From contig CM075995.1 of the NCBI GenBank assembly GCA_038087875.1, positions 11,038,001 to 11,102,000 of the forward strand: DNA of 64,000 nucleotides. The letters run 5' to 3'. A model generated the notes under the pieces. That model ran no database searches and was not told where the DNA came from. It saw nothing but the letters and a program-made list of their open reading frames with translations. This DNA comes from Malacoraja senta. Its lineage: Eukaryota. The translations under genes were made by a program, and so were the position numbers. Shown here one piece after another: positions 501 through 63,815 of the stretch; positions within the stretch are counted from its first letter, which is position 1; every line of letters begins with the position of its first letter.

Positions 501-506
501 AATGCA

Positions 507-1490
507 TCAGATACACCAACTTGTCCAAGCGGGGTGAGCCGAATCAATGGCACAGCCCTCTTGTTTCCATAGTTGTTTTGGGTTATCAGAGGCGTCCCTC
601 TGTAATGTACATACCTCCCTCATGTTTGGCAGGACCGTTCTATTTGCTAGCATCTGTTTACCTGCTGTCACTAAGCATTTGTATGCATAGGCTGCTTGTT
701 TGGCTACACTATCGGCAAATGCATTGCCTTTTGTTATAGGGTCCCCAGCACCAGTGTGTGCAGCACATTTAATAATGGTCAGCTGTTCTGGTATCATCAA
801 TGCCTTAAGCAAATAACGCACAGAAAGGCATTCCCGTGCTCCCAATCCTGGGGAGCTTTGTAAGGTCAGAACTTTAAGGTATAGGGATATTACTGACGGA
901 GCTGCCACAGGTAAGTATGCCATCGCTACTGGTAGGACGTAGGGAGGTGGACATCTCCCAGGATTATCTAACTCCTCATCTTCACTACCAAACAGGGTCG
1001 TCGTGCCAGACATGAAGTCTCCTCCAGAGGATTTATCAGTACTGGGTTTATTTGTACTAACCATCACCTGTTTATCACCTCCTGCCTGTCTCTTAATTAT
1101 TTTTTCTTGTTCCTCCGCCCACTGGCATTCTAGTTGCAATACTTTCCATCCTTTCATAGTGCCATCCTGATTTCGTAACTCTATCCCTTGTTTACATGCA
1201 GTATCCATCCAACTTCGATCTCTACTCTCCTCATGCTTCTTTTCTGCTTCTGCTTTCCACGTCTTAATTCCCTTCTTCCATTTCTTTCCTGCCTTCCTTT
1301 CCCATATCAACATTTCTGCTTTTTTAATTGTCTCGACATTCCATGTGCCCCCCACTGGCCAGGCTTCATCCCCCAACCGTTTGGTCAACTTGTAACTTAA
1401 CATTCTAAATTTCTTATTATACTTAGGATTCAAATAACACATATGTTGGACGGGGGTTCCCCCCTCACTGTTATCCAAAGCATTTCCCAT
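507..1490 (-). pseudogene. gag: ERV gag N-terminus fused in frame to the RNase H C-terminus
   Basis: MGNA myristoylation-type start, PPPY late domain, then IIKCAAHT...KGNAFADSVAKQAA (retroviral RNase H motif). CA, NC, PR and RT are absent. Confidence 0.8.
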
Positions 1491-2226
1491 AGCTAGATAG
1501 AGAAAAAGAGAGAGAAAAAAAAGAAAAAGAAAAAGAAAAAGAAAACAGACCGCTTGATTCCGAAACGTGCAAAATATATCAACCAGGCCGACTCGCTACT
1601 CGAGACACCAGTTTCTCAATTTGGCTGATTTTTTATTTTTCTTTACCTCTTTGATATACGACCCAAGTGTCTCAACGAAGCCGACTCACTAACCGAGACC
1701 CCCCGTTTCTCAACCTGGCAGACTTCTTAATCTTTAATATACAACGCCACTTATTTCTTAATCCGACAACTCCCCGGATGTTTCAATAAGCCAGACGCAC
1801 ACCTCAACTCCCGTATCTCAACCCGACAAAACACGGATGTCTCAACGAGGCCGATAAGCCCTTAGTAGAGAGAAAAGAAAAAAACAGAGATAGACAGAGA
1901 GAGAAAGAGAAACCACTCACGTCCTTCTTAACAATATACACAAGCCCATCTTAAAAATACATGCACAATTCTGTCTTAAAAATACATACACAATCCCTTC
2001 TTAAAAAAAAAACCCTATAAAGCCCAACTGGTCTTACCTTGGTCTGTTTCTAAGAACCTCGGCAGGGAACCTGGATCAACCTCTGATGAAGGATCACAGA
2101 CGTTCCCGGGAGTTTCTAGGGAGTCGGTCTTACAAGGGGGCCGATAGAGCTCAGTTATCTCCCTTCCAATCCCGGCAACCTCTGCAACCTCTTGCACAGT
2201 CAGCCGTTGATGTGGTCCCAGCGAGG

Positions 2227-13725: not shown

Positions 13726-14760
13726 TTAAACAAAATCGCCATAGCGGTCAGGCGGTTTGACAAGACGTCCCGCCCGGGTTCGCGTCTCGCCATCCACCCT
13801 TCCTGCAGGAGGAAGAGGCACCGGCGGGGAAAGACGAACCTGAAAGGGAGAAACGGGAGGAGACGGAGGAGACCGCGGCACTGAACCCGGAGGGGATGCG
13901 AGGTCGGGACCGGGAAGAGCGCGGGCAGGCGAGCGAGGACTAGTCGGAGTGGGGTGGAACGGAAGGGGCTGAGGAGGAGCAGAACGTTGCATGTCAGGAA
14001 GGACGGGCAGAGCAACGCCCTGACGCGAAACAGGCAGTGGGGGAGCAAAGGGATCCGCGGCAGGAGGACGCGGCTCATTGACGAGCCGAAGGTGCTGGCG
14101 GGACCGTCGGTAAATGGCTCCAGCGTGGTCGACGAGATAGGACCTGGGCGACCCCGCAGAGCCGACGACAGTAGCGAGCTTGGAGTGACCGGGAGCGGTC
14201 TGCATACGGACAACTTGACCGGGGAAGAGGCGCGGCAGCGGGTGGCAGGACCTGTCATGGGAACGCTGTTGGACGTCGTGCCTGAAGGCAATGCGTTTCT
14301 GAACCGCCGCAGGTGGGAGGATGGAGGGTATGAGGGAGCACTGGGCCACAGGGAGCGGGAGTCTGGTAGCGCGAGACATGAGCCGCTGAGCAGGTGAACC
14401 CATGACATAGTCGCGGGAAATGTTCCGAAGGTTGAGGAGGGCCAGATGGAAGTCGGAGTTAATGCCACCACACTGTTCCAACAGGTGCTTCGCGCTGCGG
14501 ACTGCGCGCTCGGCCAGACCGTTGCTTTGCGGGTACTCCGGGCTGCTGGTGAAATGGCGGAAGTTCCATCTGGAAGCGAACGCTTTAAACTCGGAGCTCG
14601 TGAACTGGCTGCCATTGTCCGACTGCAGGCTTGCCGGGGGGCCAAAAGTGCCAAAATGAGGGTACAACCTATCGATGACGGTCGACCACAAACCAGCTGG
14701 AGTAGGAGTCAACGAGAACCAGGAAATGTTTGCCCCGCCACTCGAAAATGTCAGCGGCAA
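13726..14760 (-). pseudogene. pol: Gypsy integrase core and C-terminus (frameshifted from the upstream pol)
   Basis: SDNGSQF, SSPEYPQSNGLAERAV, YRRSRQHL, TRAGRLVKPPDRY. Confidence 0.9.
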
Positions 14761-17344: not shown

Positions 17345-17349
17345 CTACA

Positions 17350-18706
17350 GGTATATAGGAATCGATTGAAATAGGTATAAAATGTGTGGTAGAAAGATCA
17401 TTTTTATTGCATTTATTCGGCCTATTAAAGACATCGGGAGCGTTTTCCAAAATTTAATTAGTGCGTTTAATTTATTAAGTAGAGGATCAAAATTTGCTTT
17501 AAACATACCTTGATATGTTCTAGTAATTTCGATTCCCAAGTATTTAAATTTTTCTGTAGCTATTTTAAAAGGGAATTTTAAAAGATGTGTTGAGTCTTTC
17601 GGTTTTATTGACATAATTTCTCTTTTATTCCAATTTATTCTGTATCCAGAAAAAGATCCAAAGTCTTCAATTAAATTTAATATATTTGGTATAGTGATTT
17701 GAGGTTTTGTAATGTACAGTAATATATCATCCGCGTATAAAGATATTTTATTATTTGAATATTTAGTATTATACCCATAGATATGAGGATGTATTCTAAT
17801 TTTTTTTGCTAACGGTTCAATAATAAGAGCAAACAACTGTGGTGATAATGAGCATCCTTGTCTATTTCCCCTTGATAGTTGAAATTTCGAGGATAATATG
17901 TTATTAGTTAATATTCTAGCTGTAGGTTTATTATATAATAATTTAACCCATAGAATAAAATTCTCTCCCAGTTGGAATTTTTGTAATACTTTATCCATAT
18001 AATTCCATTCTACTTGGTCAAATGCTTTTTCAGCGTCCAGCGAAATAATTGATAATTCTTGTTCTTCAGATTTATGTGAGAGCATTATGTTGAGTAAACG
18101 TCTCATATTGTTAGATGAATATCTCTTAGGGATAAACCCCGTCTGATCTGGGTTTATTAGTTTACTAATATATTTACTTAATCTTCTAGCTAATGTTTTC
18201 GCTAATATTTTTTTATCTGTGTTTAACAATACTATAGCTCTATATGAACCCGGTTCTTCTATATCTTTGTCTTTCTTAAGTATTCGTGTAATCGTTAATT
18301 CCGCTAATGTATCAGGTAGTATTTGTTTTTTAAAAGCATATTGGTACATTTTTTGTAATCTTGGTATAATTTTGTCATAGAAGCTTTTATAAAATTCATT
18401 AGTAAATCCATTAGGACCTGGTGTTTTTCCATTCTTTAGTGAGTTTATTGTATCTTCTAGTTCCTTAATTGAGATTTGTGCTCCCAATTCCTCTTGTTCC
18501 TTTAACTCTAACTTTGGAAGATTACAATTATCCAAAAACTCTGTAATTTTATTGGAGTCAGTTATCGTTTTAGATGTATACAAATTCTCATAAAATTGCG
18601 CAAATCTTTCATTAATATCCTTCGGTATGGTTAATAATTCCCCTCTATCTGATTTAATCTTTGGGATCGTATGTTCTTTTTCTCGTTTTTTTAGCTGGCG
18701 AGCCAA
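17350..18706 (-). pseudogene. L1 ORF2 reverse transcriptase domain
   Basis: KTPGPNGF, DQTGFI, SLDAEKAFD, GNRQGCSLSP, LYADD. Confidence 0.95.
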
Positions 18707-18796
18707 AAGTTTATGCGGTTTATCCCCAAATTCAAAGTGCTCTTGTTTTGTAATTTGAAAAAGTCTTATCAGTTTGGCTGATAATAGTTTATTTAA

Positions 18797-19858
18797 TTAA
18801 AATTTCAAAATTATTATTTTATTATGTTTATCTATTGATGGATCTTTAGCATTATCTATATCCATGTGTCTAATAAGTTTCTCTAACTGTTTTTGTTCAT
18901 TATTATTCTTTTTATTTTGAAAAGCTTGATATGAAATTATAATACCTCTAATGTATGCTTTAAAAGATTCCCATAATACAGTAGGCGATATGTCTGGAGT
19001 GTCATTTATTTCAAAAAAGTCATCCGTTTGTTCTTTTAAATATATACTCGCTTGTGGATCTTTTAGGATGTGAGAATTAAATCTCCAGAACGGTTTATTC
19101 TTAGACATTCCTTCCAGTTTAAAAAAGAAAGTTAGTGGTGAATGGTCTGAAATCGAATTTGTATGGTATGTTGGGTTAAAAGTATGAGGGATAAATTTTG
19201 TGTCCACCAGGAAATAATCTATACGTGAGTATGTTTTGTGTACCATTGAATAAAACGAGTATTCCCTGCCAGTTGGATTAACAATTCTCCAAACATCTGC
19301 TATATTAGTATTGTTTATATAAGTATTAAGAAGTTCACCGGTTTTAGATTTCGTATTCCCTCTCTGTTTTTGGCTTGATTTATCTAAATACGGATCTAAA
19401 ACACAGTTAAAGTCTCCTCCTATTATAACATTTTGATAGTTAGACTCTGCGATTATGTTCAGAATTTTATTGAAAAAATGAGGGTTGTCAAAGTTAGGCG
19501 CATATATATTTACCAAGGTAATTGGAGTATCATGAATTTCTCCATTAACTATTAAGTATCTCCCTTCGATGTATGTTATGGTATTCTTTGCTTTAAATGG
19601 TATACCTTTTCTTATAATGATTGACATACCTCTAGATTTCGAAGTAAATGAAGAATGGTATGTTTGACCTATCCATTTCGCCCTCAACCTAGCTTGATCA
19701 TGAGATTTTAGATGAGTTTCTTGTGAGAAGATAATGTCAGAGTTGTAGAGTTTCAGCTGAGCTAGTATCTTACACCTTTTAATAGGTTCGTTAATACCTC
19801 TTATATTCCAACTACAGAATGAGACTCCTCCTAGGTTCTTTTGCTTAGCATCTTGCAT
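18797..19858 (-). pseudogene. L1 ORF2 apurinic-like endonuclease domain
   Basis: SWNIRG, QETH, NIYAPN, GGDFN, SRIDY, SDH; frameshift near 18797. Confidence 0.95.
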
Positions 19859-20014
19859 TTTGATTAATTATAGTACCTTTAAATCTTGTGGTGCATCCAT
19901 ATCCCAGGTCTTTGGGTATTGGGGGAATTTTAAGAGTACAGTATAAAGATTCTGTACTCTTAAAATTTCTCCTTTAAATGTCCTCCATTTCTCTTGTACA
20001 TCCTTCCCATAAAA

Positions 20015-21459: not shown

Positions 21460-22980
21460 AGGGAGTGTTCACGGGCACCTTTAATCTCTTACTACTCCGT
21501 CCTGAGGTACCTACCTGCTTCAAAAAAACTACTATTATTCCGATACCGATAAAAACAAGACCTCGTGCCTCTAAGGCTAGTGTGCATTGACCTTAACATC
21601 CACCTTTATGACATAATTCGAGAGGCTGATTATGGAACGCATTAAATCCAGCTGACCAACTAACATTCATCCACTGCAGTTCTCCGACCGCCACAACAGA
21701 TCCGAGGCTGATGCCATCTCCCTGACACTAAACCTGGATAAGAGAGAAATCCACGCCAGCCATCTAGAGCCCTATTTTCAATACCATTATCCAATCATAA
21801 CTCATCTCAACGCCCAACACCCAACTCTGTAACTGGATCCTCGACTTCCCGACCAACAGACCACAATCAATGATGATAGGTGACAAATCATTATCTATCA
21901 ACAATAGAGCCCGGAAGGATGCGTTCTCTGCCCCATTCTTCACTCCTTACACACCCACCACTGTGGAGCCAAATACGAATCTAAATCCATGCACAAATTC
22001 GCAGATGACACCACCGCAGTGGGCCTGGTATCAAACAGTGAGAAGGCCGAGTGCAGGAAGAATATTGAGAACCACTTAACCTGTTGCCGAGACAACAACC
22101 TTTCCCTTAATGTGCGCAAGAACAATTATATTTTGATCAGAAAGCGGCCGGAGTCATGCAGAACGTGTGAAGGAAAGGAGGTAACCACACAGATTGTGCA
22201 GGAAGTAACGGCAGATGCTGCTTTAAACGGAAGATAGACATCAAATGTTGGAGTAACTCAGCGGCTCAGGCAGCATCTCTGGAGAGAAGGAATGGGTGAC
22301 GTTTCTGGTTGAGACCCTTCTTCAGTCACATACCCCGGTATACATCGACGGCGCCGAAGTAAGGATGGTTGAAAGCTTCAAGTTCTTTGCCATAAATATC
22401 ACCAGCAATCTGTTTTGTACCCGTCATATCGCATCAATGGGCAAAATAGCACACAGACACCTTTACTTCCTTCGAAGGCTTAGGAAGTTGGGCGTATCCA
22501 CAAAAACTCTCACCAACATCAACAGATGTGCCGTAGAAAGCAATTTATCGGGATGCATCACAGCATGGTCGAGGATCAGCTCCATCCAAGACCGCTAGAC
22601 GTTGCAGAGAGTTGTGGACGTAGGCCAGATCTTTACGGAAACCAGCCTCCCGTCCATTTCACGCTGCCTCGACACTCCACACTGCCTCGACAAGCTAAAA
22701 CATGTTTGGAAACGCATAGTTCCAGATTGAGGGACAGTTTCAGGCAGCTGAACCATCTCATCAATAACTAGAGAGCGGTCCTGATCTACCATCTGCCTCA
22801 AATTGGGGACCTTCGGACCTACTTTAAGCGGGCTTTACCTTGCACTAAAGTAATTCCCTCGGTTCTGTATATGTACTCTGTGGACGGCATGATTGTAATC
22901 ATGTATATTATTTTCGATGACATCAGTACACGGGAATTTAATAAACTAAACTAAATTAAATTAATCTAAACTAAACTGTT
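21460..22980 (+). mobile_element. Rex1/Babar LINE, degenerate
   Basis: KFADDTTAVGL, DNNLSLNV, VESFKF, HLYFLRRLRK; (AAACT)n-like tail. Confidence 0.8.
22160..22328 (-). mobile_element. Old Penelope-like terminal fragment with degenerate hammerhead motif
   Basis: The reverse complement reads CTGAAGAAGGGTCTCAACCAGAAACGTCACC...GATGCTGCC...GCTGAGTTACTCC, homologous to 58397-58480. Confidence 0.7.
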
Positions 22981-37569: not shown

Positions 37570-37855
37570 AGAAACATAGAAAATAGGCCCTTCCAGCCAT
37601 CACCGCCATTCAATATGATCATGGCTGATCATCCAAAATCAGTACCCTGTTCCGGCTTTTTCCCTTAGCCCTGAGAGTAAATCTAACTACTTTGAAAATA
37701 TCCAGTAAATTGGCCTCCACTGCCTTCTGTGACAGAGAATTCCACAGATCCACAACTCAAATTTCGTTGTACCTTAATTGGTACACGTGACAATGAATTG
37801 ACCTTGAATCCTTGTCTGGGTAAAATAGTTTTTCCTCATCTCAATCCTAAATGAC
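37570..37855 (-). mobile_element. CR1 3' end fragment
   Basis: AGAAACATAGAAAATAGG tail and reverse-complement match to the CR1 3' UTR. Confidence 0.7.
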
Positions 37856-39367
37856 CCCCCCTTCCCTCCCTCTCCCCCCATCTCCTCCCTCTCCCCCCCT
37901 CTCCCCCCCTCTCCCCTCCCCCCTCTCTACCCACTCTCTCCCCTCTCCCTCCCTCCCTCTCTCTCCCCCTCTCTCCCGCCCCTCTCTCTCCCCCTCTCTC
38001 CCCCTCTCTCCCCCCTCTCTCCCCTCTCTCCCCCCTCTCTCCCCCTCTCTCTCCTCGCTCCTCCCCTCTCCTCCCCTCCCTCCCCCTCTCTCCCGCCCCC
38101 TCTTCCCCGCCCCCCCTCTCTCCGCCCCCCTCTCTCCGCCCCCCTCTCTCCGCCCCCCTCTCTCCGCCCCCCTCTCTCCGCCCCCTCTCCGCCCCCCTCT
38201 CTCCGCCCCCCTCTCTCCGCCCCCCTCTCTCCGCCCCCCTCTCTCCGCCCCCCTCTCTCCGCCCCCCTCTCTCCGCCCCCCTCTCTCCGCCCCCCTCTCT
38301 CCGCCCCCCTCTCTCCGCCCCCCTCTCTCCGCCCCCCTCTCTCCGCCCCCCTCTCTCCGCCCCCCTCTCTCCGCCCCCCTCTCTCCGCCCCCCTCTCTCC
38401 GCCCCCCTCTCTCCGCCCCCCCTCTCTCCGCCCCCCTCTCTCCGCCCCCCTCTCTCCGCCCCCCTCTCTCCGCCCCCCTCTCTCCGCCCCCCTCTCTCCG
38501 CCCCCCTCTCTCCGCCCCCCTCTCTCCGCCCCCCTCTCTCCGCCCCCCTCTCTCCGCCCCCCTCTCTCCGCCCCCCCTCTCTCCGCCCCCCTCTCTCCGC
38601 CCCCCTCTCTCCGCCCCCCTCTCTCCGCCCCCTCTCTCGCCCCCTCTCTCCGCCCCCCTCTCTCCGCCCCCCTCTCTCCGCCCCCCTCTCTCCGCCCCCC
38701 TCTCTCCGCCCCCCTCTCTCCGCCCCCTCTCTCCGCCCCCCTCTCTCCGCCCCCCTCTCCGCCCCCTCTCTCCGCCCCCCTCTCTCCGCCCCCCTCTCTC
38801 CGCCCCCCTCTCTCCGCCCCCTCTCTCCGCCCCCCTCTCTCCGCCCCCTCTCTCCGCCCCCCTCTCTCCGCCCCCCTCTCTCCGCCCCCTCTCTCCGCCC
38901 CCCTCTCTCGCCCCCCTCTCTCCGCCCCCCTCTCTCCGCCCCCCTCTCTCCGCCCCCTCTCTCCGCCCCCTCTCTCCGCCCCCCTCTCTCCGCCCCCCTC
39001 TCTCCGCCCCCCTCTCTCCGCCCCCTCTCTCCGCCCCCCTCTCTCCGCCCCCCTCTCTCTCCCCCCTCTCTCCCCCCTCTCTCCCCCCTCTCTCCCCCCT
39101 CTCTCCCCCCTCTCTCCCCCCTCTCTCCCCCCTCCCCTCCCCCTCTCCCCCTCTCTCCCCTCTCTCCCCCCCATCTTTTACCCCTCTCTACCCCCACCTC
39201 CCCTCGCTCTCCCCCCTCACTCCCCCCTCTCTCCCCCTCCTCTCTCCCCATCTACCCCCCTCTCTCCCCCTCTCTCTCCCCGCCTCTCTCCCCCCTCTCT
39301 CTTCGCCCTCTCTCTCCCCCCTCTCCCGCCTCTCTCCCCCTCTTCTCTCCCCCCCTCTCCCCCCCAC
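37855..39367. repeat. C/T-rich minisatellite, core (CTCTCTCCGCCCC)n of ~13 bp
   Basis: Direct reading; regular core ~38110-39050 with pure C/T flanks. Confidence 0.97.
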
Positions 39368-39484
39368 TGGATAGTGTGTGCGGGGGTGGTAGTGGTGGTT
39401 GGTGTGTGTGTGACGCCACAGCCCCCCCCCCCCCGCAACCGCGCATTGACGGGGCGGGACGAAACCGGTCCCACTTGGTCTAGT
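39368..39484 (+). mobile_element. Probable Helitron 3' terminus
   Basis: Hairpin GGGAC-GAAACCG-GTCCC (39456-39472), 7-nt spacer, CTAG (39480-39483), then T. Confidence 0.6.
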
Positions 39485-43355: not shown

Positions 43356-46300
43356 TAGGGAGTTAGGAGGGGAGTTAAAGAGTGGGACAGCAAAGGTAAC
43401 AATCTCGGGATTACTGCCTGTGCCACGCGACAGTGAGAGAGGGAATGGAGCAAGGTGGAGGATAAATGCGTGGCTGAAGGACTGGTGCAGAGGGCAGGGA
43501 ATCACATTTCTGGATCATTGGGACCTCTTTTGTGGAAGGTGCGACCTGTACAAAAAGGATGGGTTTCACTTGAACCCGAGGGGGACCGATATCCTGGCGG
43601 GGAGATCTGCAAAGGCTACTGGGAGACTTTAAACTAGAATGGTTGGGGGGAGGGACTCAAATAGAGAAAGCTATTAGACAGTGTGTGAGGCAGGAGGCAG
43701 AGAAGGAAAGCACTCAGACCCAACATGTAGGGGGGAAAGAAGAAAACAAAAATAAACAGAGAATAAGAGGTGGTGGGGTTCTTAAATGGGTGAGCAGAGA
43801 AACAGAGGGTGTAAAATGCGGGCGGAAGCAATAGGTAGCAAGGTGAAAAGTAAAAGTGGCAGGCAGACAAATCCAGGCAAAAATCAAAAAGGGCCACTTT
43901 TCAACATAATTGTATAAGGGGTAAGAGCGTTGTAAAAACAAGCCTGAAGGCTTTGTGTCTGAATGCAAGGAGCACTCGTAATAAGGTGGATGAGTTGAAC
44001 GTGCAGATAGCTATTAATGATTATGATTGTGGAACAGTCTCCGGAGACTGTTCCACAACCAACTCTCTAACTGCCCCACCTCCTCCGCCTTTTTCCTTTT
44101 TTCCTTTCTACTCCCCACCCCCTATCAGTCTGAAGAAGGGTTTCGTCCCGAAACGTTACCTATTTCCTTCGCTCCATAGATGCTGCTGCACCCGCTGAGT
44201 TTCTCCAGCATTTTTGTGTACCAATGATTATGATATGGTCGGGATCACGGAGACATGGCTCCAGGGTGACCAAGGCTGGGAGCTGAACATCCAGGGATAT
44301 TCAATATTCAGGAGGGATAGAGAGAAAGGAAAAGGTGGTGGAGTAGCGTTGCTGGTTAGAGAGGAGATTAACGCAGTGGAAAGGAAGGACGTTAACTTGG
44401 TGGATGTGGAATCGGTATGGGTAGAGCTGCGAAGCACTAAGGGGCAGAAAACGCTGGTGGGTGTGTACACGCCACCTAGCAGTAGTAGTGAAGTTGGGGC
44501 TGGCATCAAACAGGAAATTAGAAATGCGTGCAACAAAGGCAAAACAGTTATAATGGGTGACTTCAATCTATATATAGATTGGGTGAATCAAATTGGCAGG
44601 GGTGCTGAGGAAGAGGATTTATTGGAATGTATGCGGGATAGTTATCTAAACCAACATGTAGAGGAACCAACGAGAGAGCAGGCTATTCTAGACTGGGTAT
44701 TGAGTAATGAGGAAGGGTTAGTTAGCAGTCTTGTTGTGTGTGCCCCCTTGGGCAAGAGTGACCATAATATGGTTGAGTTCTTCATTAGGATGGAGAGTGA
44801 CATTATTAATTCAGAAACAACGGTTCTGAACTTAAAGAAAGGTAACTTTGAGGGTAAGAGACGTGAATTGGCCAAGATTGACTGGCAATTAGTTCTAAAA
44901 GGGTTGACGGTGGATATGCAATGGAAGGCATTTAAAGACTGCATGGATGACTACAAAAATTGTTCATCCCAGTTTGGCAAAAGAATAAATCAGGGAAGGT
45001 GGTGCATCCGTGGATAACAAGGGAAATCAGGGATGGTATCAAAGCAAAAGATAATGCGTACAAATTAGCCAGAAAAAGCAGCATACCAGAGGACTGGGAG
45101 AAATTCAGAGACCAGCAGAGGAGGACAAAGGGCTTAATTAGGAAAGGGAAAATAGATTATGAAAGAAAACTGGCAGGGAACGTAAAAACTGACTGCAAAC
45201 GTTTTTATAGATATGTGAAGAGAAAGAGATTAGTTAAAACGAATGTAGGTCCCTTGCAGTCAGAAACAGATGAATTGATCATGGGGAACAAGGCTATGGC
45301 GGACCAATTGAATAACTACTTTGGTTCCGTCTTCAATAGGAAGACATAAATAATCTGCCGGAAATAGCAGAGGGACCGCGGGTCAAAGGAGATAGAGGAA
45401 CTGAGAAAATCCAGGTTAGTCGGGAAGTGGTGTTGGGTAAATTGAATGGATTAAAGGCCGATAAATCACCAGGGCCAGATAGGCTGCATCCCAGAGTACT
45501 TAAGGAAGTAGCTCCAGAAATAGTGGATGCATTAGTGATGATTTTTCAAAACTCTTTCGATTTTGGAGTAGTTCCTGAGGATTGGAGGGTAGCAAACGTA
45601 ACCCCACTTTTTAAGAAGAGAGGGAGAGAGAAAACGGGGAATTACAGACCAGGTAGTCTAACATCGGTAGTGGGGAAACTGCTAGAGTCAGTTATTAAAA
45701 ATGGGATAGCAGCACACTTGGAAAGTGGTGAAATCATTGGCAAAGTCAGCATGGATTTACGAAAGGTAAATCATGTCTGACGAATCTTATAGAAATTTTC
45801 GAGGATGTAACTAGTAGAGTGGATAGGGGAGAACCAGTGGATGTGTTGTATCTGGACTTTCAGAAGGCTTTTGACAAGGTCCCACATAAGAGATTAGTAT
45901 ACAAACTTAAAGCAAACGGTATTGGGGGTTCAGTATTGATGTGGATAGAGAACTGGCTGGCAAACAGGAAGCAAAGTGTAGGAGTAAACGGGTCCTTTTC
46001 ACAATGGCAGGCAGTGACTAGTGGGGTACCGCAAGGCTCAGTGCTGGGACCCCAGCTATTTACATTTTATATTAATGAACTGGATGAGGGAATTGAAGGC
46101 AACATCTCCAAGTTTGCGGATGACACTAAGCTGGGGGGCAGTGTTAGCTGTGAGGAGGATGCTAGGAGACTGCAAGGTGATTTGGATAGGCTGGGTGAGT
46201 GGGCAAATGTTTGGCAAATGCAGTATAATGTGGATAAATGTGAGGTTATCCACTTTGGTGGCAAAAACAGGAAAGTAGACTATTATCTAAATGGTGGCCG

Positions 46301-49818: not shown

Positions 49819-50337
49819 AGGCCCGGGGAGCCGTTGGAGCGAGGAGTTACCTGGAGCTGTGAGTAGAAAAACAGCGCGGGGCTTGCTTCTACAGAGGCCC
49901 GGGGAGCCGTTGGAGCGAGGAGTTACCTGGAGCTGTGAGTAGAAAAACAGCGCGGGGCTTGCTTCTACAGAGGCCCGGGGATCCGTTGGAGCGAGGAGGA
50001 GTTACCTGGAGCTGTGAGTAGAAAACAGCGCGGGGCTTGCTTCTACAGAGGCCCGGGGAGCAGTTGGAGCGAGGAGGAGTTACCTGGAGCTGTGAGTAGA
50101 AAAACAGGGCGGGGCTTGCTTCTACAGAGGCCCGGGGAGCCGTTGGAGCGAGGAGGAGTTACCTGGAGCTGTGAGTAGAAAAACAGCGCGGGGCTTGCTC
50201 CTACAGAGGCCCCGGGAGCCGTTGGAGTGACGAGGAGTTACCTGGAGCTGTGAGTAGAAAAACAGCGCGGGGCTTGCTTCTACAGAGGCCCGGGGAGCCG
50301 TTGGAGCGAGAAGGAGTTACCTGGAGCTGTGAGTAGA
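49819..50337 (+). repeat. 76-79-bp monomer array (6 full + 1 partial) at the CR1 5' end
   Basis: Units start at 49819, 49895, 49971, 50049, 50128, 50207 and 50286. Confidence 0.95.
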
Positions 50338-50459
50338 CCCAAATCTGGAACGTTCCATCTGCAACTGCAACGTTCCAGATAATGTGTGGGGGAAGCCTCT
50401 GATTGGTCGAACGGACTAGAGGAAGCAGCTGATTGGCTTGTATCCCAGGTAAGGGGATT

Positions 50460-55917: not shown

Positions 55918-56090
55918 CTTCACCGTGCCTTTAACAAATAATTCTACACACAACGGAAGTGGCGGGATTGGACCACCAATACCACCACTGCCGTTGTGTG
56001 TATTCTACATACGACGGCAGTGGTGGTATTGGTGGTCGAATCCCATCACTGCCGTTGTGTGTAGAATTATTTGTTAGAGGCACTTTGAAG
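55918..56090. repeat. Nested near-perfect palindrome (MITE-like)
   Basis: 55932-56076 folds about a 3-nt centre; each arm is itself a hairpin. Confidence 0.9.
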
Positions 56091-57245: not shown

Positions 57246-58391
57246 CTGCACCTATTTTCTATGTTTCTATGTTTCAATAACAAGTTCCCAGCTTGCTTGC
57301 TTGCTTGTTTGCTTGCTGTAATGCAAGTAGTTGTTCCTGGCCTGGGCACTGCACCAGAAACGGGAGTGATCTGGAGAAAGGACTGAAGGGGGAACTACAG
57401 TACACTGGGAAGTAACTGATGTTGAATATTTACAGAAGATGCCAGAACGTGTGTACTGCCAATGCTTTGCTAGATCAAGATGTGATGTCAATAAGGTTGG
57501 ATCTCAGAAAGGTTGCCAGACCAGACCCTAAATGGTGAAATCTGATCTAATGTCATGGATGGTAAAGATAAAGGGAAATGAAAGGGCGGAGCAATCTCCT
57601 ATTCAAAGGAGACAAGGACAAGGTCAACCAGAGGAGATGACGAATGCAGGCTGATTAGGTCGAGCCCTCACGCTTACAGAGTCCACTGTGCCGTGTGTAG
57701 GTTTTGGGACGGTCTTCTACTTCTTTCGTGTGGCGTGCACAGCCTAATGTTGTTGGACAACTTGTTCTTCCCATCTCCCCCTATGTCTGCCTTCCGCAAA
57801 GACCGCTCCCTCCGTAACTCCCTTGTCAATTCTTCCCTTCCCTCCCATACCACCCCCTCCCCTGGTACTTTCCCTTGCAACCGCAAGAGATGCAACACTT
57901 GTCCCTTCACTTCCCCCCTCCACTCCATTCCAGGACCCAAGCAGTCGTTCCAGGTGCGACAGAGGTTCACCTGCATCTCCTCCAACCTCATCTATTGCAT
58001 TCGCTGCTCTAGATGCCAGCTGATCTACATCGGTGAGACCAAGCGGAGGCTTGGCGATCGTTTCGCCGAACACCTCCGGTCGGTCCGCAATAACCAACCT
58101 GAACTCCCGGTGGCTCAGCACTTCAACTCCCCCTCCCATTCCGTATCTGACCTCTCTGTCCTGGGTCTCCTCCATGGCCACAGCGAGCAACACCGTAAAT
58201 TGGAGGAAATGCACCTCATATTCCGCTTGGTCAGTCTACATCCTGGTGGCCTGAACGTTGAATTCTCCCAATTCTGCTAGCCCTGGCTGTCCCCTCCCCT
58301 TCATCAGCCATCTGGTTGTCTCCTCCCCTCCCCCAGCCCTCGGGCTCCTCCTCCTCCTTTTCCTTTTTGCCTTTCTTCTCCCCACCCACTA

Positions 58392-58428
58392 TCAGTCTGA
58401 AGAAGGGTTTCGGCCCGAAACGTTACCT
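58392..58428 (+). ncRNA. Minimal hammerhead ribozyme motif (5' repeat)
   Basis: CTGAAGA-A-GGG(TTTCGG)CCC-GAA-ACGT-T: conserved core boxes, stem II, loopless palindromic stem III; stem I is weak. Confidence 0.75.
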
Positions 58429-58559
58429 ATTTCCTTCGCTCCATAGATGCTGCTGCACCCGCTGAGTTTCTCCAGCATTTTTGTGTACCTTCGATTTTCC
58501 AGCATCTGCAGTTCCTTCTTTAACACTTTGTCTACTCCACTGCGAAATCTCGTCAAGGT

Positions 58560-61500
58560 ATGCCTACTTTGAAGAAGTTCTCCTCCTCTCTCCGGAGACT
58601 GTTCCACACCCAACTCGCTAACTGCCCCATCTCTGTGATCCCCCCTGCCCTCCAACTCTACGACCACATCCTTACCCAAACTCGATACCACAGCCACATC
58701 TGCTTCCTCGGGGCATGCCTGCGCCTCCATCTCATACCTCATGGCTTCCAGCTCCAGTTCCCTACTTCCCAGTTCGGACCTCAGCCGGACTATCGGTACC
58801 GACTGGCTATCTACCGGCATACCCAACAATTCTCCACCCGGGCACTGAGATCCACACTGACTGCGATGCGCCGGCATCAGCAGGACCTCGCATTGACTCT
58901 CCCAGAACTTCGGGCCTCACTCACCCAGACCTGCAACGGACCACAACTGTACTTTATCCGCCGGAAGATCCACCTCTTCAATAAAAGATTCCTGGCCCAC
59001 CTCAACTCCACCAAGGACCTTAAATTAGCCCGCCTCCAGGCCGCTCCCGCCGCCGACTCTCGGCGACTCGACCGCCCGCTGGCTCCGGGCCCCAACACCG
59101 GCCCGCATCGCCTGCCCCGGTCCCGCGACGCCATCTTGTCCACGGGGAGCGACTCCAGTACTCACCAGGACGCCATCTTGTCCACGGGGAGCGCCTCCAG
59201 TACTCACCAGGAGGTCGCCTTAACCGACCTCCACGTCGATGCTGCCGCCGACCTTCACCTGCCTACCGATGACGCCCAGGCTCGCCGCTTCTACGGTAAC
59301 TCGGACTTCCTTCCCCTCGCCGATTCCTCCGAACCTCGCCGCCCCCCGGGACCTCCCAGCATCGCCGCCGGACCGGGCCCATCCAGCATCGCCGCCGGAC
59401 CGGGCCCACTCTACACGGCCGCCGGACCGGGGATCCACGAACTTGGCCGCCGCACCGCACCCTATTCACCCCGTCGCCTCACCGGACTGGTCGAACCACG
59501 CCGCCCCACCGACCATCCGCCTACCGGGACCTCCCACGCATCGCCCGTGGACCCCGACTCTACTGCCCACCTACCCCGACCATCGGGTCCACCGACCCTC
59601 GCCACTGCAACGCCCTACAGCCCCACCGACCCCGACTACACTGCCCACGGACCCCGACCGTCGGGTCCGCTGACCCTCGCCACCGCACCTCCCTCCAGCA
59701 GCCCGCAGCCGTCGCCTTACCTGCAAACTGGACTCTGTACTGGGCCTGAAGCCTCCACGCTGTTCACTCCCACTCTCCTGGGTTTGACTCCACTGGGTCC
59801 TAGCGCTAGTCTGCCTAACCCTGGTTATCTCAGTGGCAGTTCCACTGATTCTTCCCCATCCCTCTCCAACTATGGGACCACTTCTCTTCCACACCCACAC
59901 CACTGCCCTCTCACCCCCCCACCCCCTGACCACCCACCACCCCCCCACCACACATCGCCTCGTCCCCATTACACCCACCTGCCTTCCTCCGGCCCCAACC
60001 CCCATCCCTGCCGGGTGTTCACCATCCCCCCCGACCTCCCACTCTCCGACATCGAACGGTCTGTCCTCAGCAGAGGTCTTACCTTTGTCCCCCTCCGTCC
60101 CCATCTCAATGAGTTCCGTGCCCTCCATGACTTGGAATGCTTCTACCGTCGCCTCCGCCTCACAGCTCACTTCCATGGGAAGCAGTCCTCGCTCCCCACT
60201 GATGACCCCTTTTCCCGTCTCCAACGCACCCCATCCTCATGGAACCCCCCTCGCAGCCTTCCGGCTTTAGAACTCTTTATTAAAAACTGCCGCCGTGACA
60301 TCCACCGCCTCAACTTCTCCACTCCCCTGTCTCACTCCAATCTCTCCCCCCTTGAACGCACTGCCATCGACTCACTCCGCAACAACCTAGATTGGGTTAT
60401 CAAACCCGCCGACAAGGGAGGTGCCATGGTAGTCTGGCGCGTCGACCTCTACAAAGCTGAGGCCACGCGCCAACTCTCGGACACCTCTTCCTACTTACCC
60501 CTGGACTATGACCCCACTGACGAGCACCAGGCCACCATCTCCAGCACCATCACCAACTTCATCCACTCCCACGCCCTGCCCGAACGAGCCTCCAACCTCA
60601 TCGTTCCCCAGCCCCGCACAGCCCGCTTTTACCTTCTCCCCAAAATCCACAAACCTGACTGTCCCGGTAGACCCATTGTCTCTGCCTGTTCTTGCCCCAC
60701 CGAACTCATCTCCACCTACCTCGACTCCATACTATCCCCCTTGGTTAAATCCCTCCCCACCTATGTTCAAGACACCTCAGACACTCTCCGTCATTTCCGC
60801 GCATTCCACTCTCTAGGCCCTCACCCCCTCATCTTCACCATGGACGTCCAGTCACTGTACACCTCCATCCCCCACCAGGATGGTCTCAAAGCCCTCCGTT
60901 TTTTCCTCGACCGTAGAAGCAATCTATACCCGGCCACTGACACCCTCCTCCGCCTAGCGGAGCTGGTACTTACACTTAATAACTTTTCATTTGACTCCTC
61001 CCATTTCCTCCAATTACAAGGCGTAGCTATGGGCACACGCATGGGACCCAGCTACGCCTGCCTCTTTGTCGGGTACGTAGAACAATCCCTGTTCAATGCG
61101 TACCAGGGCCCCATCCCCGACCTCTACCTCCGCTACATCGATGATTGTTTTGGTGCCACATCCTGCACCCACACACAACTGACTGACTTCATCCGCTTCA
61201 CCACCAACTTCCATCCGGCACTCAAATACACCTGGACCATTTCCGACACTTCCCTACCATTCCTTGACCTCACTATCTCCATCGCAGGTGATAGACTCCT
61301 TACCGACATCCACTACAAACCTACCGACTCCCATGGCTATCTGGACTACACTTCTTCCCACCCTGCTTCCTGTAAGGACTCCATCCCCCACTCCCAATTC
61401 CTCCGTCTACGCCGCATCTGCTCCCAGGATGAGGCGTTCCACACCAGGGCATCTGAAATGTCCTCATTCTTCAGGGAACGGGGGTTCCCCTCCTCCACCA

Positions 61501-62198
61501 TAGATGAGGCTCGCACCAGGGTCTCTGCCATACCCCGCAACACTGCTCTCTCTCCCCATCCCCCCACTCACAACAAAGGCAGAGTCCCCCTAGTCCTCAC
61601 CTTTCACCCCACCAGCCTTCACATACAACAAGTGATCCTCCGTCAGTTTCGCCACCTCCAACGTGACCCCACCACTCGCCACATCTTCCCATCTCCCCCT
61701 ATGTCTGCCTTCCGCAAAGACCGCTCCCTCCGTAACTCCCTTGTCAATTCTTCCCTTCCATCCCATACCACCCCCTCCCCTGGTACTTTCCCTTGCAACC
61801 GCAAGAGATGCAACACTTGTCCCTTCACTTCCCCCCTCCACTCCATTTCAGGACCCAAGCAGTCGTTCCAGGTGCGACAGAGGTTCACCTGCATCTCCTC
61901 CAACCTCATCTATTGCATTCGCTGCTCTAGATGCCAGCTGATCTACATCGGTGAGACCAAGCGGAGGCTTGGCGATCGTTTCGCCGAACACCTCCGGTCG
62001 GTCCGCAATAACCAACCTGAACTCCCGGTGGCTCAGCACTTCAACTCCCCCTCCCATTCCGTATCTGACCTCTCTGTCCTGGGTCTCCTCCATGGCCACA
62101 GCGAGCAACACCGTAAATTGGAGGAAATGCACCTCATATTCCGCTTGGGCAGTCTACATCCTGGTGGCCTGAACGTTGAATTCTCCCAATTCTGCTAG
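58560..62198 (+). CDS. Penelope polyprotein: N-terminal domain, Pro-rich linker, RT, Cys linker, GIY-YIG endonuclease (1212 aa, intact)
   Basis: KPADKGG, LPKIHK, GRPIVS, MDVQSLYTSI, GVAMGT, RYIDD, CNRKRCNTC, LIYCIRCSRCQLIYIGET...RFAEH...GLN. Confidence 0.95.
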   Translation: MPTLKKFSSSLRRLFHTQLANCPISVIPPALQLYDHILTQTRYHSHICFLGACLRLHLIPHGFQLQFPTSQFGPQPDYRYRLAIYRHTQQFSTRALRSTLTAMRRHQQDLALTLPELRASLTQTCNGPQLYFIRRKIHLFNKRFLAHLNSTKDLKLARLQAAPAADSRRLDRPLAPGPNTGPHRLPRSRDAILSTGSDSSTHQDAILSTGSASSTHQEVALTDLHVDAAADLHLPTDDAQARRFYGNSDFLPLADSSEPRRPPGPPSIAAGPGPSSIAAGPGPLYTAAGPGIHELGRRTAPYSPRRLTGLVEPRRPTDHPPTGTSHASPVDPDSTAHLPRPSGPPTLATATPYSPTDPDYTAHGPRPSGPLTLATAPPSSSPQPSPYLQTGLCTGPEASTLFTPTLLGLTPLGPSASLPNPGYLSGSSTDSSPSLSNYGTTSLPHPHHCPLTPPPPDHPPPPHHTSPRPHYTHLPSSGPNPHPCRVFTIPPDLPLSDIERSVLSRGLTFVPLRPHLNEFRALHDLECFYRRLRLTAHFHGKQSSLPTDDPFSRLQRTPSSWNPPRSLPALELFIKNCRRDIHRLNFSTPLSHSNLSPLERTAIDSLRNNLDWVIKPADKGGAMVVWRVDLYKAEATRQLSDTSSYLPLDYDPTDEHQATISSTITNFIHSHALPERASNLIVPQPRTARFYLLPKIHKPDCPGRPIVSACSCPTELISTYLDSILSPLVKSLPTYVQDTSDTLRHFRAFHSLGPHPLIFTMDVQSLYTSIPHQDGLKALRFFLDRRSNLYPATDTLLRLAELVLTLNNFSFDSSHFLQLQGVAMGTRMGPSYACLFVGYVEQSLFNAYQGPIPDLYLRYIDDCFGATSCTHTQLTDFIRFTTNFHPALKYTWTISDTSLPFLDLTISIAGDRLLTDIHYKPTDSHGYLDYTSSHPASCKDSIPHSQFLRLRRICSQDEAFHTRASEMSSFFRERGFPSSTIDEARTRVSAIPRNTALSPHPPTHNKGRVPLVLTFHPTSLHIQQVILRQFRHLQRDPTTRHIFPSPPMSAFRKDRSLRNSLVNSSLPSHTTPSPGTFPCNRKRCNTCPFTSPLHSISGPKQSFQVRQRFTCISSNLIYCIRCSRCQLIYIGETKRRLGDRFAEHLRSVRNNQPELPVAQHFNSPSHSVSDLSVLGLLHGHSEQHRKLEEMHLIFRLGSLHPGGLNVEFSQFC

Positions 62199-62309
62199 CC
62201 CTGGCTGTCCCCTCCCCTTCATCAGCCATCTGGTTGTCTCCTCCCCTCCCCCAGCCCTCGGGCTCCTCCTCCTCCTTTTCCTTTTTTCCTTTCTTCTCCC
62301 CACCCCCTA

Positions 62310-62346
62310 TCAGTCTGAAGAAGGGTTTCGGCCCGAAACGTTACCT
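62310..62346 (+). ncRNA. Minimal hammerhead ribozyme motif (3' repeat)
   Basis: Identical to 58392-58428, 3918 nt downstream. Confidence 0.75.
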
Positions 62347-62894
62347 ATTTCCTTCGCTCCATAGATGCTGCTGCACCCGCTGAGTTTCTCCAGCATTTTT
62401 GTGTACCTTTGTTCTATTTGATCTTCCGTTTGTGCACGTCGAATTGATTGCATTAGTCGAAACAGAGCGGGCCACGTGAAGGTTGCAATCTTCCACCCCG
62501 GGAAGGTAACGGTATCTTGCTTTAGTTTCTGACGACCAGATTACTAACCGCAATCCCCATGTTCGATCCCACCCGAGAGTTGAGGATCTGCTGATCGGAT
62601 TATTATTCTGAACACGTCACAGAGTCTTGTTTGATAATACTCAAGGGCAGAATTGATGGCTTGCCTCTCTGTTGGAAGAACATGTTCCGATGATATTTAG
62701 ACGAAAGTAATACTTCCAGACCGGCGTTCATTTGCAAAGATTGTTACTGTTGTCTCATTTTCCAATTGTTTGTCTCATTTTCCAATTCATTCCATTATCT
62801 GAAGAAGATCTTCTTTTGCAGCAGGTTCGTCTTTTGTGCCCATCACGGTAACATCACACGGCAAACGCCAGTGTGATGTTACTAGATGTGATGA

Positions 62895-63815
62895 TAGGCA
62901 CAAAATGCTGGATTAACTCAGCGGGACAGGCAGCATTTCTGGACAGAAGAAATAGGTGACGTTTCGGGTCGAGATCCTTCTTCAGACTGTTAAAGAAGGA
63001 ACTGCAGATGCTGGAAAAATCGAAGGTACACAGAAATGCTGGAGAAACTCAGCGGGTGCAGCAGACTGATGTCAGGGGAATGGGCGGGACAAAGATAGAA
63101 TGTAGTCGCGATGGGAGAACTGGGACCAAGGACAAAGGACATTTATTGTCACATACGCCAAAGGTGCAGTGAAATTTGAGTTACCATGCAGCACACAAAT
63201 AAGATAAACACAACACTGTAGAATTTAACATAAAACATAAAAACATCACCCACAGCGGAATCAACGTTTCCCACTGTGAGGGAAGGCAACAAATTTCAGT
63301 CCTCTTCCTCATGTTCACCCGTGGTCGGGGCCTATTGAGGAAGGGGAGGGGATCGTGAGAGGGGGAAAGCAAGGGCTATTTGAAGTTAGAGAAGTAAATG
63401 TTCATACCACTGGGGTGTAAGCTACCTAAACGAAATATGAGGTGCCGTTCCTCCAATTTGCGCTGGGCCTCACTGACAATGGAGGAGGCCCAGGAGAGAA
63501 AGGTCAGATTGAATGGGAGGGGGAGTTAAAGTGCTGATCAACCAAGAGATCGGCTAGGTTAATGTAAATGACCCAGTCATTCTCACACACGTGGTACAAC
63601 AGTATTTATTGAAAGGCATTTGCAATACAATGCAGCATGTTGCTTCTGCTGTGTAGCGGCAATGGACTGACAGCACTAGTTGCGTTACGATAATATGAAC
63701 AGTGAAGTAGGCGGAGCTTCTAATAATAAAGCACTACCTTGGTTAGTATGAAGTAACCAATCTAAAGTTAACGCGGACTGAACGGAGGTGTTCAGCGAAA
63801 AGATCGCCGAGCCTG
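62895..63815 (-). mobile_element. Older Penelope-like 3' fragment with several insertions
   Basis: Minus strand RLGDLFAEHLRSVR...HFNSP...HLIFRLGSLHP; hammerhead-like motif at 62955-62989. Confidence 0.8.
63563..63766 (-). mobile_element. Solo LTR (Gypsy-like, 204 bp)
   Basis: TSD GTTAA (63558-63562 / 63767-63771); ends TGTAAA...ATCTAAA resemble the LTR at 13453-13656; AATAAA on the minus strand. Confidence 0.75.

What the first reader, a model, noticed from the sequence alone, without database searches (positions are those of the whole stretch)
57766..62409. Intact Neptune-type Penelope element bracketed by twin minimal hammerhead ribozymes
Seen: a 1212-aa uninterrupted RT + GIY-YIG ORF, two 726-bp repeats that differ at only a few positions, and an identical CUGAAGA...GAAACGUU motif in each repeat with a loopless ACGT stem III and an extra A after A9. 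Known: PLEs carry such minimal hammerheads, proposed to cleave as dimers; the Cys linker marks the Neptune group. Inference: cleavage at both sites would release a 3918-nt RNA containing the whole ORF, which could circularise. This is the only element in the window that looks potentially active.
Basis: partly seen in the sequence, partly recalled or inferred. Interest (0 to 1): 0.7.

Follow-up and report, generated by a model that had tools for sequence, protein, structure and literature searches.

The report
Intact Penelope-like retrotransposon with hammerhead motifs
This is a real, still open-reading copy of a known kind of jumping gene (a Penelope-like element) with a tiny self-cutting RNA motif in each end repeat, but the ends of its copies suggest that it mostly spreads from uncut RNA, so the proposed RNA circle remains unproven.

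Summary
It is an endonuclease-bearing Penelope-like element (PLE), most likely Neptune (linker motif met, no tree with named references). This anatomy and the circle idea are published, and this scan found hammerhead-bearing stubs of such elements before on other DNA. The circle is not supported over rivals. Copies end 65-67 or about 103 nt beyond the cut site, so a doubly cut linear RNA cannot be the direct template. Many short copies begin at the hammerhead's 5' edge and keep the motif whole. Helix I has only 2 contiguous pairs, and the core is predicted to be masked. 'Potentially active' means only coding-competent: the repeats differ by 0.7%, and no RNA data were available. The lead worth testing: transcription may start 3 nt before the hammerhead core (initiator-like TCAGTC; TATA boxes 36-44 nt upstream in 5 of 16 relatives' motifs). 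The abundant 97/134-nt stubs would then be run-off cDNAs, which suggests how pseudo-LTRs are rebuilt.

The parts
57762..57768 (+). Left target-site duplication TTGTTCT (last 3 nt shared with the element)
   Evidence: uninterrupted host repeat seen as loose ends behind 57768 in 201 contigs of X1 and 137 of X4
57766..58491 (+). 5' pseudo-LTR: 5'-truncated upstream copy (end of linker, GIY-YIG, 3' UTR, hammerhead)
58370..58378 (+). Pyrimidine tract CCTTTCTTC predicted to pair with the core strand GAAGAAGGG when transcribed through (same at 62288-62296)
58392..58397 (+). Initiator-like TCAGTC (A at 58394), also a YAG acceptor after a pyrimidine tract; many short copies begin at 58391-58395; candidate transcription start (inferred)
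   Evidence: initiator consensus recalled
58395..58426 (+). 5' minimal type I hammerhead: C3 58397, extra A 58404, helix II 58405-58416, GAAA-CG-U-U17, predicted cut after 58424, helix I 2 contiguous bp
58438..58512 (+). Predicted stem-loop after the hammerhead; one class of copy 3' ends (58489-58491) falls in its 12-nt bulge
   Evidence: z about -2
58492..58527 (+). 36-nt PLE 'tail': absent from this copy's 3' end, present on other copies; 58514-58524 can pair back onto the hammerhead core
58447..58572 (+). 41-codon upstream ORF, out of frame, overlapping the main ATG
58560..62198 (+). 1212-aa ORF: N-terminal domain (aa 1-160), Pro/Ser/Thr-rich spacer (161-485), telomerase-like RT (DKG 618, YIDD 859), linker, GIY-YIG
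59040..60014 (+). 325-aa low-complexity spacer; 8-53 aa in 74 of 78 homologues, 166-246 aa in 4
61794..61820 (+). CX4CXXC linker motif (CNRKRCNTC, aa 1079-1087)
61905..62195 (+). GIY-YIG endonuclease with CCHH (C1122, C1125, H1160, H1166) and R1140, H1144, E1189, N1205
61684..62409 (+). 3' repeat (ORF end, 3' UTR, hammerhead), ending 67 nt after the predicted cut, without tail
62313..62344 (+). 3' minimal hammerhead, predicted cut after 62342
62409..62415 (+). Right target-site duplication TTGTTCT
44016..44234 (+). Short copy of the same family (fold-back start, piece of 58589-58633, then 58347-58489) inside a LINE, 12-bp duplication
62983..63068 (-). About 77-nt 3' stub with tail of the same family, inserted at CAGTCTG (7-bp duplication) at the hammerhead edge of an older PLE
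22189..22325 (-). Older stub of about 135 nt, starting at CTGAAGA and ending at the tail, inside a LINE frame

Best explanation
A full-length, coding-competent copy of an endonuclease-bearing Penelope-like retrotransposon, most likely Neptune, in a repeat-rich animal genome (probably a cartilaginous fish; inferred, not tested). It inserted by target-primed reverse transcription into another repeat as a partial tandem: one whole unit preceded by a 726-bp truncated unit. SHOWN by sequence: ORF, repeats, duplication, motif, two classes of 3' ends 36 nt apart. INFERRED from PAc and Penelope work: the upstream repeat supplies the promoter; the protein binds the structured RNA after the hammerhead and starts reverse transcription internally, about 67 or 103 nt past the cut site, on RNA whose hammerhead is not cut. 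The hammerhead is off by default (2-bp helix I, masked core, needs a second copy and probably protein). If it cuts, it does so late or on a side path such as 3'-end formation or silencing the message. INFERRED here: transcription starts at about 58394, so initiation in the 5' UTR runs off after 97 or 134 nt and leaves the very abundant hammerhead stubs, while initiation at the 3' repeat gives the 5'-truncated longer copies. The copy is not brand new and is not shown to be active.
For: Anatomy. Protein: 186 homologues, best 53-54% identical over RT-EN; it departs from the consensus at 9 of 220 columns conserved at 80% or more, one an alignment artefact, against a median of 12 among 91 homologues; model pLDDT 95.5, and the top 11 Foldseek hits are telomerase RTs. 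3' ends: window copies end at 58491, 58489, about 58490, 58527 and about 58531 equivalents (5 of 5 past the cut); loose ends behind 58525 in 269 contigs of X4 and behind 58490 in 24 of X17. 5' ends: unrelated A/T-rich letters before 58395 in 145 contigs (X1) and 189 (X4), before 58392/58394 in 32/26 (X17); window stub at 22325 starts at C3. Summed depth of the hammerhead bin is 154-868 times that of the 5' ORF bins in 4 of 4 runs, with a 3'-to-5' decline along the ORF. Masking: P(core unpaired) 0.21-0.29, opening cost 4.1-8.2 kcal/mol against a median of 3.0 in 16 relatives. Literature: internal initiation, tail between two start sites, cleavage not required and protein-assisted, no RNA-seq ends at the cut (PMC11167929); low activity even as dimers (PMC4209133).
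Against: All four runs are contigs, with no raw RNA reads; they cannot show an RNA start or end, depth is no copy number, and the loose-end table was cut (5643 rows not shown), so the lack of a listed end at 58425 is weak. At 85% likeness the edge of a conserved block can mimic a 5' end: the 161 loose ends before 58391 in X1 are pyrimidine-rich, i.e. other families. TCAKTY occurs 0.9 times per kb in the window, and this element has no TATA box. Two window stubs do not start at 58394 (58347 and 58450). A ligated circle restores an intact-looking motif and would give the same long copies. PAc is a Poseidon element, not Neptune. Neptune membership rests on a motif, not a tree.
Confidence: 0.68

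Rival explanations
1. One reading: both hammerheads pair through ACGU, cut, and the 3918-nt RNA is ligated to a circle that RT copies for more than one turn (here one turn plus 726 nt, starting 67 nt past the junction).
For: 4644 = 3918 + 726. Both repeats share letters at six sites (57911, 57921, 58247, 58251, 58257, 58285) where all X3 contigs and part of X1 differ, as expected from one template lineage. The core is intact in both. Same-strand motifs lie outside the matched ORF region in 16 of 80 related loci against 0 in 20 shuffles; H17 is U in 8 of those 16, so GUU is ordinary. Proposed in PMC4209133; circles are shown for retrozymes with canonical motifs (PMC7229834).
Against: A circle has no 5' end, so it does not explain stubs that start at 58391-58397. 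Helix I has 2 contiguous pairs against 3 or more in 13 of 16 relatives; the ACGU duplex is only -1.7 kcal/mol. PAc used uncut RNA. Among the papers read, none reports a PLE-length circle.
Confidence: 0.2
2. Strong-stop and jump: RT starts in the 5' UTR, runs off at the RNA's 5' end (about 58394) and jumps to the matching sequence at the RNA's 3' end (62312 onward, possibly trimmed at 62342 by the 3' hammerhead alone), like a retroviral R transfer. Stubs are failed jumps; a second jump rebuilds the pseudo-LTR.
For: Stub boundaries and the depth step; only the 5' UTR holds the whole stem-loop and tail; the tail masks the 5' core in an RNA starting at 58394; TATAWA starts 36-44 nt before C3 in 5 of 16 relatives' motifs against a background of 0.024 (P 3e-5); no AATAAA/ATTAAA after the stop until 63725, outside the element.
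Against: DNA alone cannot tell a jump from a circle or from a read-through tandem RNA. The TATA window was chosen after looking, the reverse strand scored 3 of 16, and some motifs lie 0.5-3 kb from the matched ORF and may belong to other elements. The 3' core is predicted to be masked too.
Confidence: 0.17
3. The hammerhead is a non-cutting relic or serves as DNA or protein-binding sequence in this family, and this copy is an old, silent insertion that has not yet lost its frame.
For: Repeats differ at 0.69% (95% range 0.22-1.6%); a neutral ORF at that divergence stays free of stops in 75% of 4000 simulations. The copy differs from most related contigs at several sites, e.g. 60795 and 61046. 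Weak helix I, masked core.
Against: The core is kept across families and distant relatives; the protein keeps its catalytic and zinc-binding residues. Some repeat differences may be RT or assembly errors.
Confidence: 0.25
4. The recurring boundary at CAGT|CTGAAGA is an endonuclease preference, a splice acceptor or an alignment edge, not a transcription start.
For: A stub inserted at CAGTCTG with a 7-bp duplication; joint 58520 to 58395 in 5, 12 and 1 contigs of X1, X4, X17; pyrimidine tract plus CAG; in D. virilis the intron ends at helix I (PMC4209133).
Against: The stub at 22189-22325 sits in a LINE frame with no extra upstream exon; most loose letters before 58395 are A/T-rich, not PLE tails or pyrimidine tracts.
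Confidence: 0.35

Closest known systems
Neptune clade of C-terminal EN+ Penelope-like elements (PMC8557442, passages)
   Same: Single ORF with DKG, TERT-like RT, CX2-5CxxC linker, CCHH GIY-YIG; partial tandem; tail; variable target duplication; strong 5' truncation; hammerhead in the pLTR.
   Different: 1212 aa against about 900 because of a 325-aa low-complexity spacer; inserted in a mixed-sequence repeat, not a microsatellite; no tree with named members.
Minimal type I hammerheads of metazoan PLEs (PMC4209133, main text parts 1-2 of 4)
   Same: No loop III, palindromic 15.2-16.2, extra base after A9, G10.1-C11.1, one motif per repeat, many dispersed single motifs.
   Different: Helix II 4 bp; helix I 2 contiguous bp, shorter than the 4-5 bp given for S. 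mansoni and like the D. virilis variant.
PAc, Poseidon element of Anolis (PMC11167929, parts 1-2 of 4)
   Same: Two classes of copy 3' ends downstream of the hammerhead, separated by the tail, next to a stem-loop.
   Different: PAc has no cysteine linker and its ORF starts inside the hammerhead; here the ATG is 135 nt after the cut and both end classes are in the 5' UTR.
Penelope of D. virilis (PMC2377424, passages)
   Same: Partial tandem, 34-37-bp repeat, promoter and start site in the pseudo-LTR.
   Different: Its start site is 46 nt before a 75-nt intron that ends at helix I; here the start is inferred 3 nt before C3 and no intron was tested.
Non-LTR retrozymes (PMC7229834; bioRxiv 10.64898/2026.07.22.740005)
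   Same: Type I hammerheads, PLE pLTR origin proposed, one chondrichthyan species reported.
   Different: Non-coding short tandem repeats with circles shown for canonical motifs; this is an autonomous element and its stubs in the window are dispersed monomers.

Membership tests
C-terminal EN+ PLE | Single ORF with RT then GIY-YIG | tested here: met
   (both Pfam hits below gathering score)
C-terminal EN+ PLE | Telomerase-like RT with DKG motif | tested here: met
   DKG 618; top 11 fold hits are TERTs, E 5e-11 to 1e-9, TM 0.30-0.38
C-terminal EN+ PLE | CCHH motif and catalytic R, H, E, N in the endonuclease | tested here: met
   definition from PMC8557442
C-terminal EN+ PLE | Partial tandem (pLTR), target duplication, 30-40-bp tail | tested here: met
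   tail present on other copies, absent from this copy's 3' end
C-terminal EN+ PLE | Intron in the pLTR (some PLEs) | not testable with these tools
   no raw RNA reads
Neptune clade | CX2-5CxxC linker between RT and EN (absent in Penelope/Poseidon) | tested here: met
   CNRKRCNTC aa 1079-1087; GTxxC-x2-5-CxxC in 90 of 120 homologues
Neptune clade | Linker not reduced as in Nematis; vertebrate occurrence | tested here: inconclusive
   No Nematis sequence to compare; the preprint classed PLEs of its sampled vertebrates as Neptune or Poseidon; host taxon inferred
Neptune clade | RT phylogeny with named Neptune members | not testable with these tools
   no named references among fetched sequences; Neptune itself is paraphyletic
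Minimal type I hammerhead | Core CUGANGA and GAAA, extra base after A9, G10.1-C11.1, palindromic 15.2-16.2, NUH | tested here: met
   GUU is listed as a cleavable NUH in PMC3138052
Minimal type I hammerhead | Helix I of about 4-5 bp | tested here: not met
   2 contiguous pairs, 2 mismatches, 2 pairs; a 2-bp variant is described for D. virilis
Minimal type I hammerhead | Self-cleavage as a dimer | not testable with these tools
   needs an assay; predicted folds disfavour it
Rfam hammerhead families | Covariance-model match | tested here: not met
   none among 13 matches at E up to 10
Non-LTR retrozyme | Non-coding short tandem units | tested here: not met
   the unit is 3918 nt and codes for RT-EN

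The most novel reading that the evidence does not exclude
In Neptune-type PLEs the hammerhead is the first 30-odd nucleotides of the transcript. RT starts in the 5' UTR, makes a 97- or 134-nt strong-stop-like cDNA and must jump to the RNA's 3' end, where cleavage by the 3' hammerhead alone would leave a 31-nt terminal redundancy. Failed jumps are the vast family of hammerhead stubs in these genomes; repeated jumps rebuild the pseudo-LTR. The ribozyme would then make a retrovirus-like R region, not a circle.
Probability: 0.15. Interest if true: 0.72.

Novelty: new member of a known kind. Interest (0 to 1): 0.36.

Why it matters
The element itself is ordinary for a PLE-rich genome. Its use is as a test case: how pseudo-LTRs are regenerated was called unexplained in PMC2377424, and what the PLE hammerhead does is open. 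This family offers an intact ORF, two mapped classes of 3' ends and a sharp 5' boundary, so circle, read-through and template-jump models make different predictions for RNA ends that 5' RACE, cyclic-phosphate sequencing and an in vitro assay can separate. The search listing and papers read showed a reconstitution only for a Poseidon element, and no solved structure matched the RT-EN by sequence.

Tried and rejected
No whole genome is held, so no genome-wide copy census. No RNA holder listed and no raw reads; X17 is only guessed to be RNA and is no evidence on expression. The exact motif pattern found 0 matches in metagenome and viral contigs. No look-alike among earlier scan findings by sequence. 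No PDB sequence match. The N-terminal 490 aa as a query found nothing at E 0.001, though the alignments show its first 160 aa are homologous. Lunse et al. on dimer cleavage could not be read and is known here only through PMC6765202. Rejected: LTR retrotransposon (no integrase or RNase H hit; the repeat includes coding sequence); assembly duplication (repeats differ at 5 sites and a target duplication flanks them); GUU as a defect (8 of 16 relatives have U17); open ORF as proof of activity (75% expected by chance); TCAKTY as a conserved signal in relatives (anywhere in the 40 nt before C3 in only 4 of 16); tail-to-core pairing as a conserved feature (the old stub at 22.2 kb masks its core with other, nearer sequence). 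Only 4 of 24 listed runs were laid, and only on 57700-61683, so the right junction was not examined in reads. Supplements were not read; those of PMC4209133, PMC11167929 and PMC8557442 may already show cartilaginous-fish motifs or stub 5' ends.
Full report
OBSERVATION. Two 726-bp repeats (57766-58491, 61684-62409) are offset by 3918 and differ at 5 sites; an ORF at 58560-62198 gives 1212 aa; the motif CTGAAGA-A-GGGT-TTCG-GCCC-GAAA-CG-TT is identical at 58397-58424 and 62315-62342. A degenerate form matches 5 times in the window against 0.00 expected in 100 shuffles. Rfam's models did not detect it. The insertion carries a 7-bp duplication, TTGTTCT, at 57762-57768 and 62409-62415. The uninterrupted host repeat, running from the left flank into ATTTGATCTT, appears as loose ends in 201 contigs of run X1 and 137 of X4. 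So this is a true insertion into another repeat.

PROTEIN. Pfam gives RVT_1 and GIY-YIG, both under the gathering score. The RT-EN part has 186 homologues at E up to 0.001, the best 53-54% identical; 120 were listed. Aligned with those 120, the protein departs from the consensus at 9 of 220 columns conserved at 80% or more (one is an artefact at the start Met); the median is 12 among the 91 homologues that cover those columns, and 24 of 91 do as well or better. DKG, YIDD, the CX4CXXC linker, CCHH and the catalytic R, H, E, N are present. A model of aa 483-1212 (pLDDT 95.5) has telomerase RTs as its top 11 fold matches. These are the marks of a C-terminal EN+ PLE as defined in PMC8557442 (passages). 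The linker excludes Penelope/Poseidon but is shared by Neptune and Nematis. A preprint classed PLEs of its sampled vertebrates as Neptune or Poseidon (bioRxiv 10.64898/2026.07.22.740005; part 1 of 5 and passages), so Neptune is likely, but I built no tree with named members. The extra length is a 325-aa Pro/Ser/Thr-rich spacer, against 8-53 aa in 74 of 78 homologues and 166-246 aa in 4. Low-depth contigs of run X3 match it at 99%, so it is not peculiar to this assembly. The host is probably a cartilaginous fish; this rests on my recall of the motif and on earlier scan notes, not on a test.

HAMMERHEAD. It fits the minimal type I motif of PMC4209133 (parts 1-2 of 4 read): no loop III, palindromic 15.2-16.2, extra base after A9, G10.1-C11.1. 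My descriptor found same-strand motifs in 16 of 80 related loci, one on the opposite strand and none in 20 shuffles; all 16 lie outside the matched ORF region. Only 8 of the 42 loci with room after the ORF end had one, so the descriptor misses many or they lack it. It also scores only 3 of the window's 5 motifs; the two older ones have a broken helix II. U17 occurs in 8 of 16, so GUU is ordinary. Helix I is the weak point: 2 contiguous pairs here against 3 or more in 13 of 16 relatives. In every context folded, the purine core strand pairs with a pyrimidine tract: upstream (58370-58378), just downstream, or in the tail (58514-58524). Opening the core costs 4.1-8.2 kcal/mol in the three family copies against a median of 3.0 in relatives. 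Purine-pyrimidine pairing in so skewed a sequence may be partly compositional: most z-scores are unremarkable, and only folds that include the tail reach about -2. The dimer helix ACGU:ACGU is worth -1.7 kcal/mol. Published dimers cleave weakly (review passages, PMC6765202), and the Anolis PAc motif cut only with protein and was not needed for insertion (PMC11167929, parts 1-2 of 4).

WHAT THE COPY ENDS SAY. All 5 PLE 3' ends in the window lie past the cut: three at about 58489-58491 and two at about 58527-58531 in this element's coordinates. Contigs agree: loose ends behind 58525 in 269 contigs of X4 and behind 58490 in 24 of X17. The 36-nt gap is the known PLE tail, which in PAc lies between two internal RT start sites. 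A linear RNA cut at both motifs ends at 62342 and cannot directly template an end at 62409 joined to upstream sequence; the template was uncut there, re-ligated, or switched. On the 5' side, unrelated A/T-rich letters begin before 58395 in 145 contigs (X1) and 189 (X4), and before 58392 or 58394 in 32 and 26 (X17); the window's stub at 22189-22325 starts at C3. No end at 58425 is listed, but 5643 rows of that table were not shown. Summed depth over the hammerhead bin is 154-868 times that over the ORF's 5' bins in 4 of 4 runs and, by my arithmetic on table 2, about 4-6 times that over the two neighbouring endonuclease bins in X1, X4 and X17. Depth is no copy number and pools several families at 85% likeness. 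The commonest products thus appear to be short stubs that hold the whole, uncut motif.

MECHANISM. Best reading (0.68): the upstream repeat supplies the promoter (as in Penelope; PMC2377424, passages); the protein binds the stem-loop after the hammerhead and starts internally on uncut RNA; the ribozyme is off by default. I infer a start site at about A58394. It matches the initiator consensus TCAKTY (recalled; weak alone, 0.9 per kb), it would explain the stub boundary and the short helix I, and TATAWA starts 36-44 nt before C3 in 5 of 16 relatives' motifs against a background of 0.024, with 0 of 16 scored in three neighbouring windows. Against this: the window was chosen after looking, a sixth box at -46 fell between my windows, the reverse strand scored 3 of 16, some motifs may belong to other elements, this element has no TATA box, and two window stubs start elsewhere (58347, 58450). 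The same boundary could be an endonuclease preference: a stub inserted at CAGTCTG with a 7-bp duplication at 63068/62989, and the matching joint occurs in 5, 12 and 1 contigs of X1, X4, X17. It could also be a splice acceptor or an alignment edge. The DNA product is the same in all three.

ACTIVITY. The repeats differ by 0.69% (95% range 0.22-1.6%), and a neutral ORF at that divergence stays free of stops in 75% of 4000 simulations, indels not counted. At three of the five sites the upstream repeat has the rare letter. With 7e-10 per generation (epaulette shark; PMC10587355, abstract only) my arithmetic gives about 5 million generations if all differences arose after insertion; RT or assembly errors would shorten this, and the host is only inferred. 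No RNA holder was listed. The copy is coding-competent; activity is not shown. The other long frames scanned are partial or split.

NOVELTY. Every defining part, and the circle proposal, is in print. Paper searches returned no description of this family, of a start site at the hammerhead's edge or of a strong-stop jump in PLEs, but the library lacks most subscription papers, Repbase was not available, supplements were not read, and Lunse et al. could not be fetched. PMC7229834 and PMC3138052 were seen as passages. Three earlier scan reports describe hammerhead-bearing PLE stubs in shark-like genomes as ordinary. Verdict: new member of a known kind, interest 0.36; the start-site and jump reading has probability 0.15 and would deserve about 0.72.

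Noticed in passing
window 62983-63068 (-) and joints: A young stub sits exactly at the hammerhead edge (CAGTCTG) of an older PLE; the tail-to-hammerhead joint recurs in three runs, hinting at self-targeting.
   Followed up: partly
run X4 laid on 58393-58423 (table 5c): Contigs go back from 58423 to 58393 or 58394 (depth 1040 and 679): tandem duplications of the hammerhead core alone, about 33-36 nt, which would be natural close dimers.
   Followed up: no
L006, L017, L019, L026, L051, L077, upstream of the motif: TATA boxes 36-46 nt before C3, and CCAAT-like boxes further up in L006, L019 and L025.
   Followed up: partly
window 58447-58572: A 41-codon out-of-frame upstream ORF overlaps the main ATG and could damp translation.
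   Followed up: no
window 59040-60014: A CpG-rich 325-codon spacer with small tandem repeats (27, 42, 78 nt), the longest among 78 homologues; length variants appear as skips in contigs of X4 and X17.
   Followed up: partly
window 44016-44234: Composite stub with a fold-back start and a piece of the ORF start joined to the pLTR end, with a 12-bp duplication.
   Followed up: partly
window about 57680-57768 and 62409-62500: The host repeat into which the element inserted is multi-copy and was not identified.
   Followed up: no
window 55918-56090: An 85-bp inverted repeat with a 3-nt loop; scores with microRNA models only far below their thresholds.
   Followed up: no
window 13729-17344 (-) and 17348-19867 (-): An LTR-type pol (protease, RT, RNase H, integrase split between two frames) lies directly against an L1-like EN-RT frame that a stop interrupts.
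   Followed up: partly
window 2-1595 (-): Pieces of another integrase-bearing retroelement at the window's edge, in separate frames.
   Followed up: no
window 37830-39480 and 50000-50416: A 1.6-kb purine/pyrimidine-skewed array of about 14-nt units, and a 79-nt tandem repeat.
   Followed up: no
L002 1005-1133 and 3536-3663; L014 50-207: Inverted or fold-back hammerhead-bearing repeats beside related ORFs, as described for PLEs.
   Followed up: no
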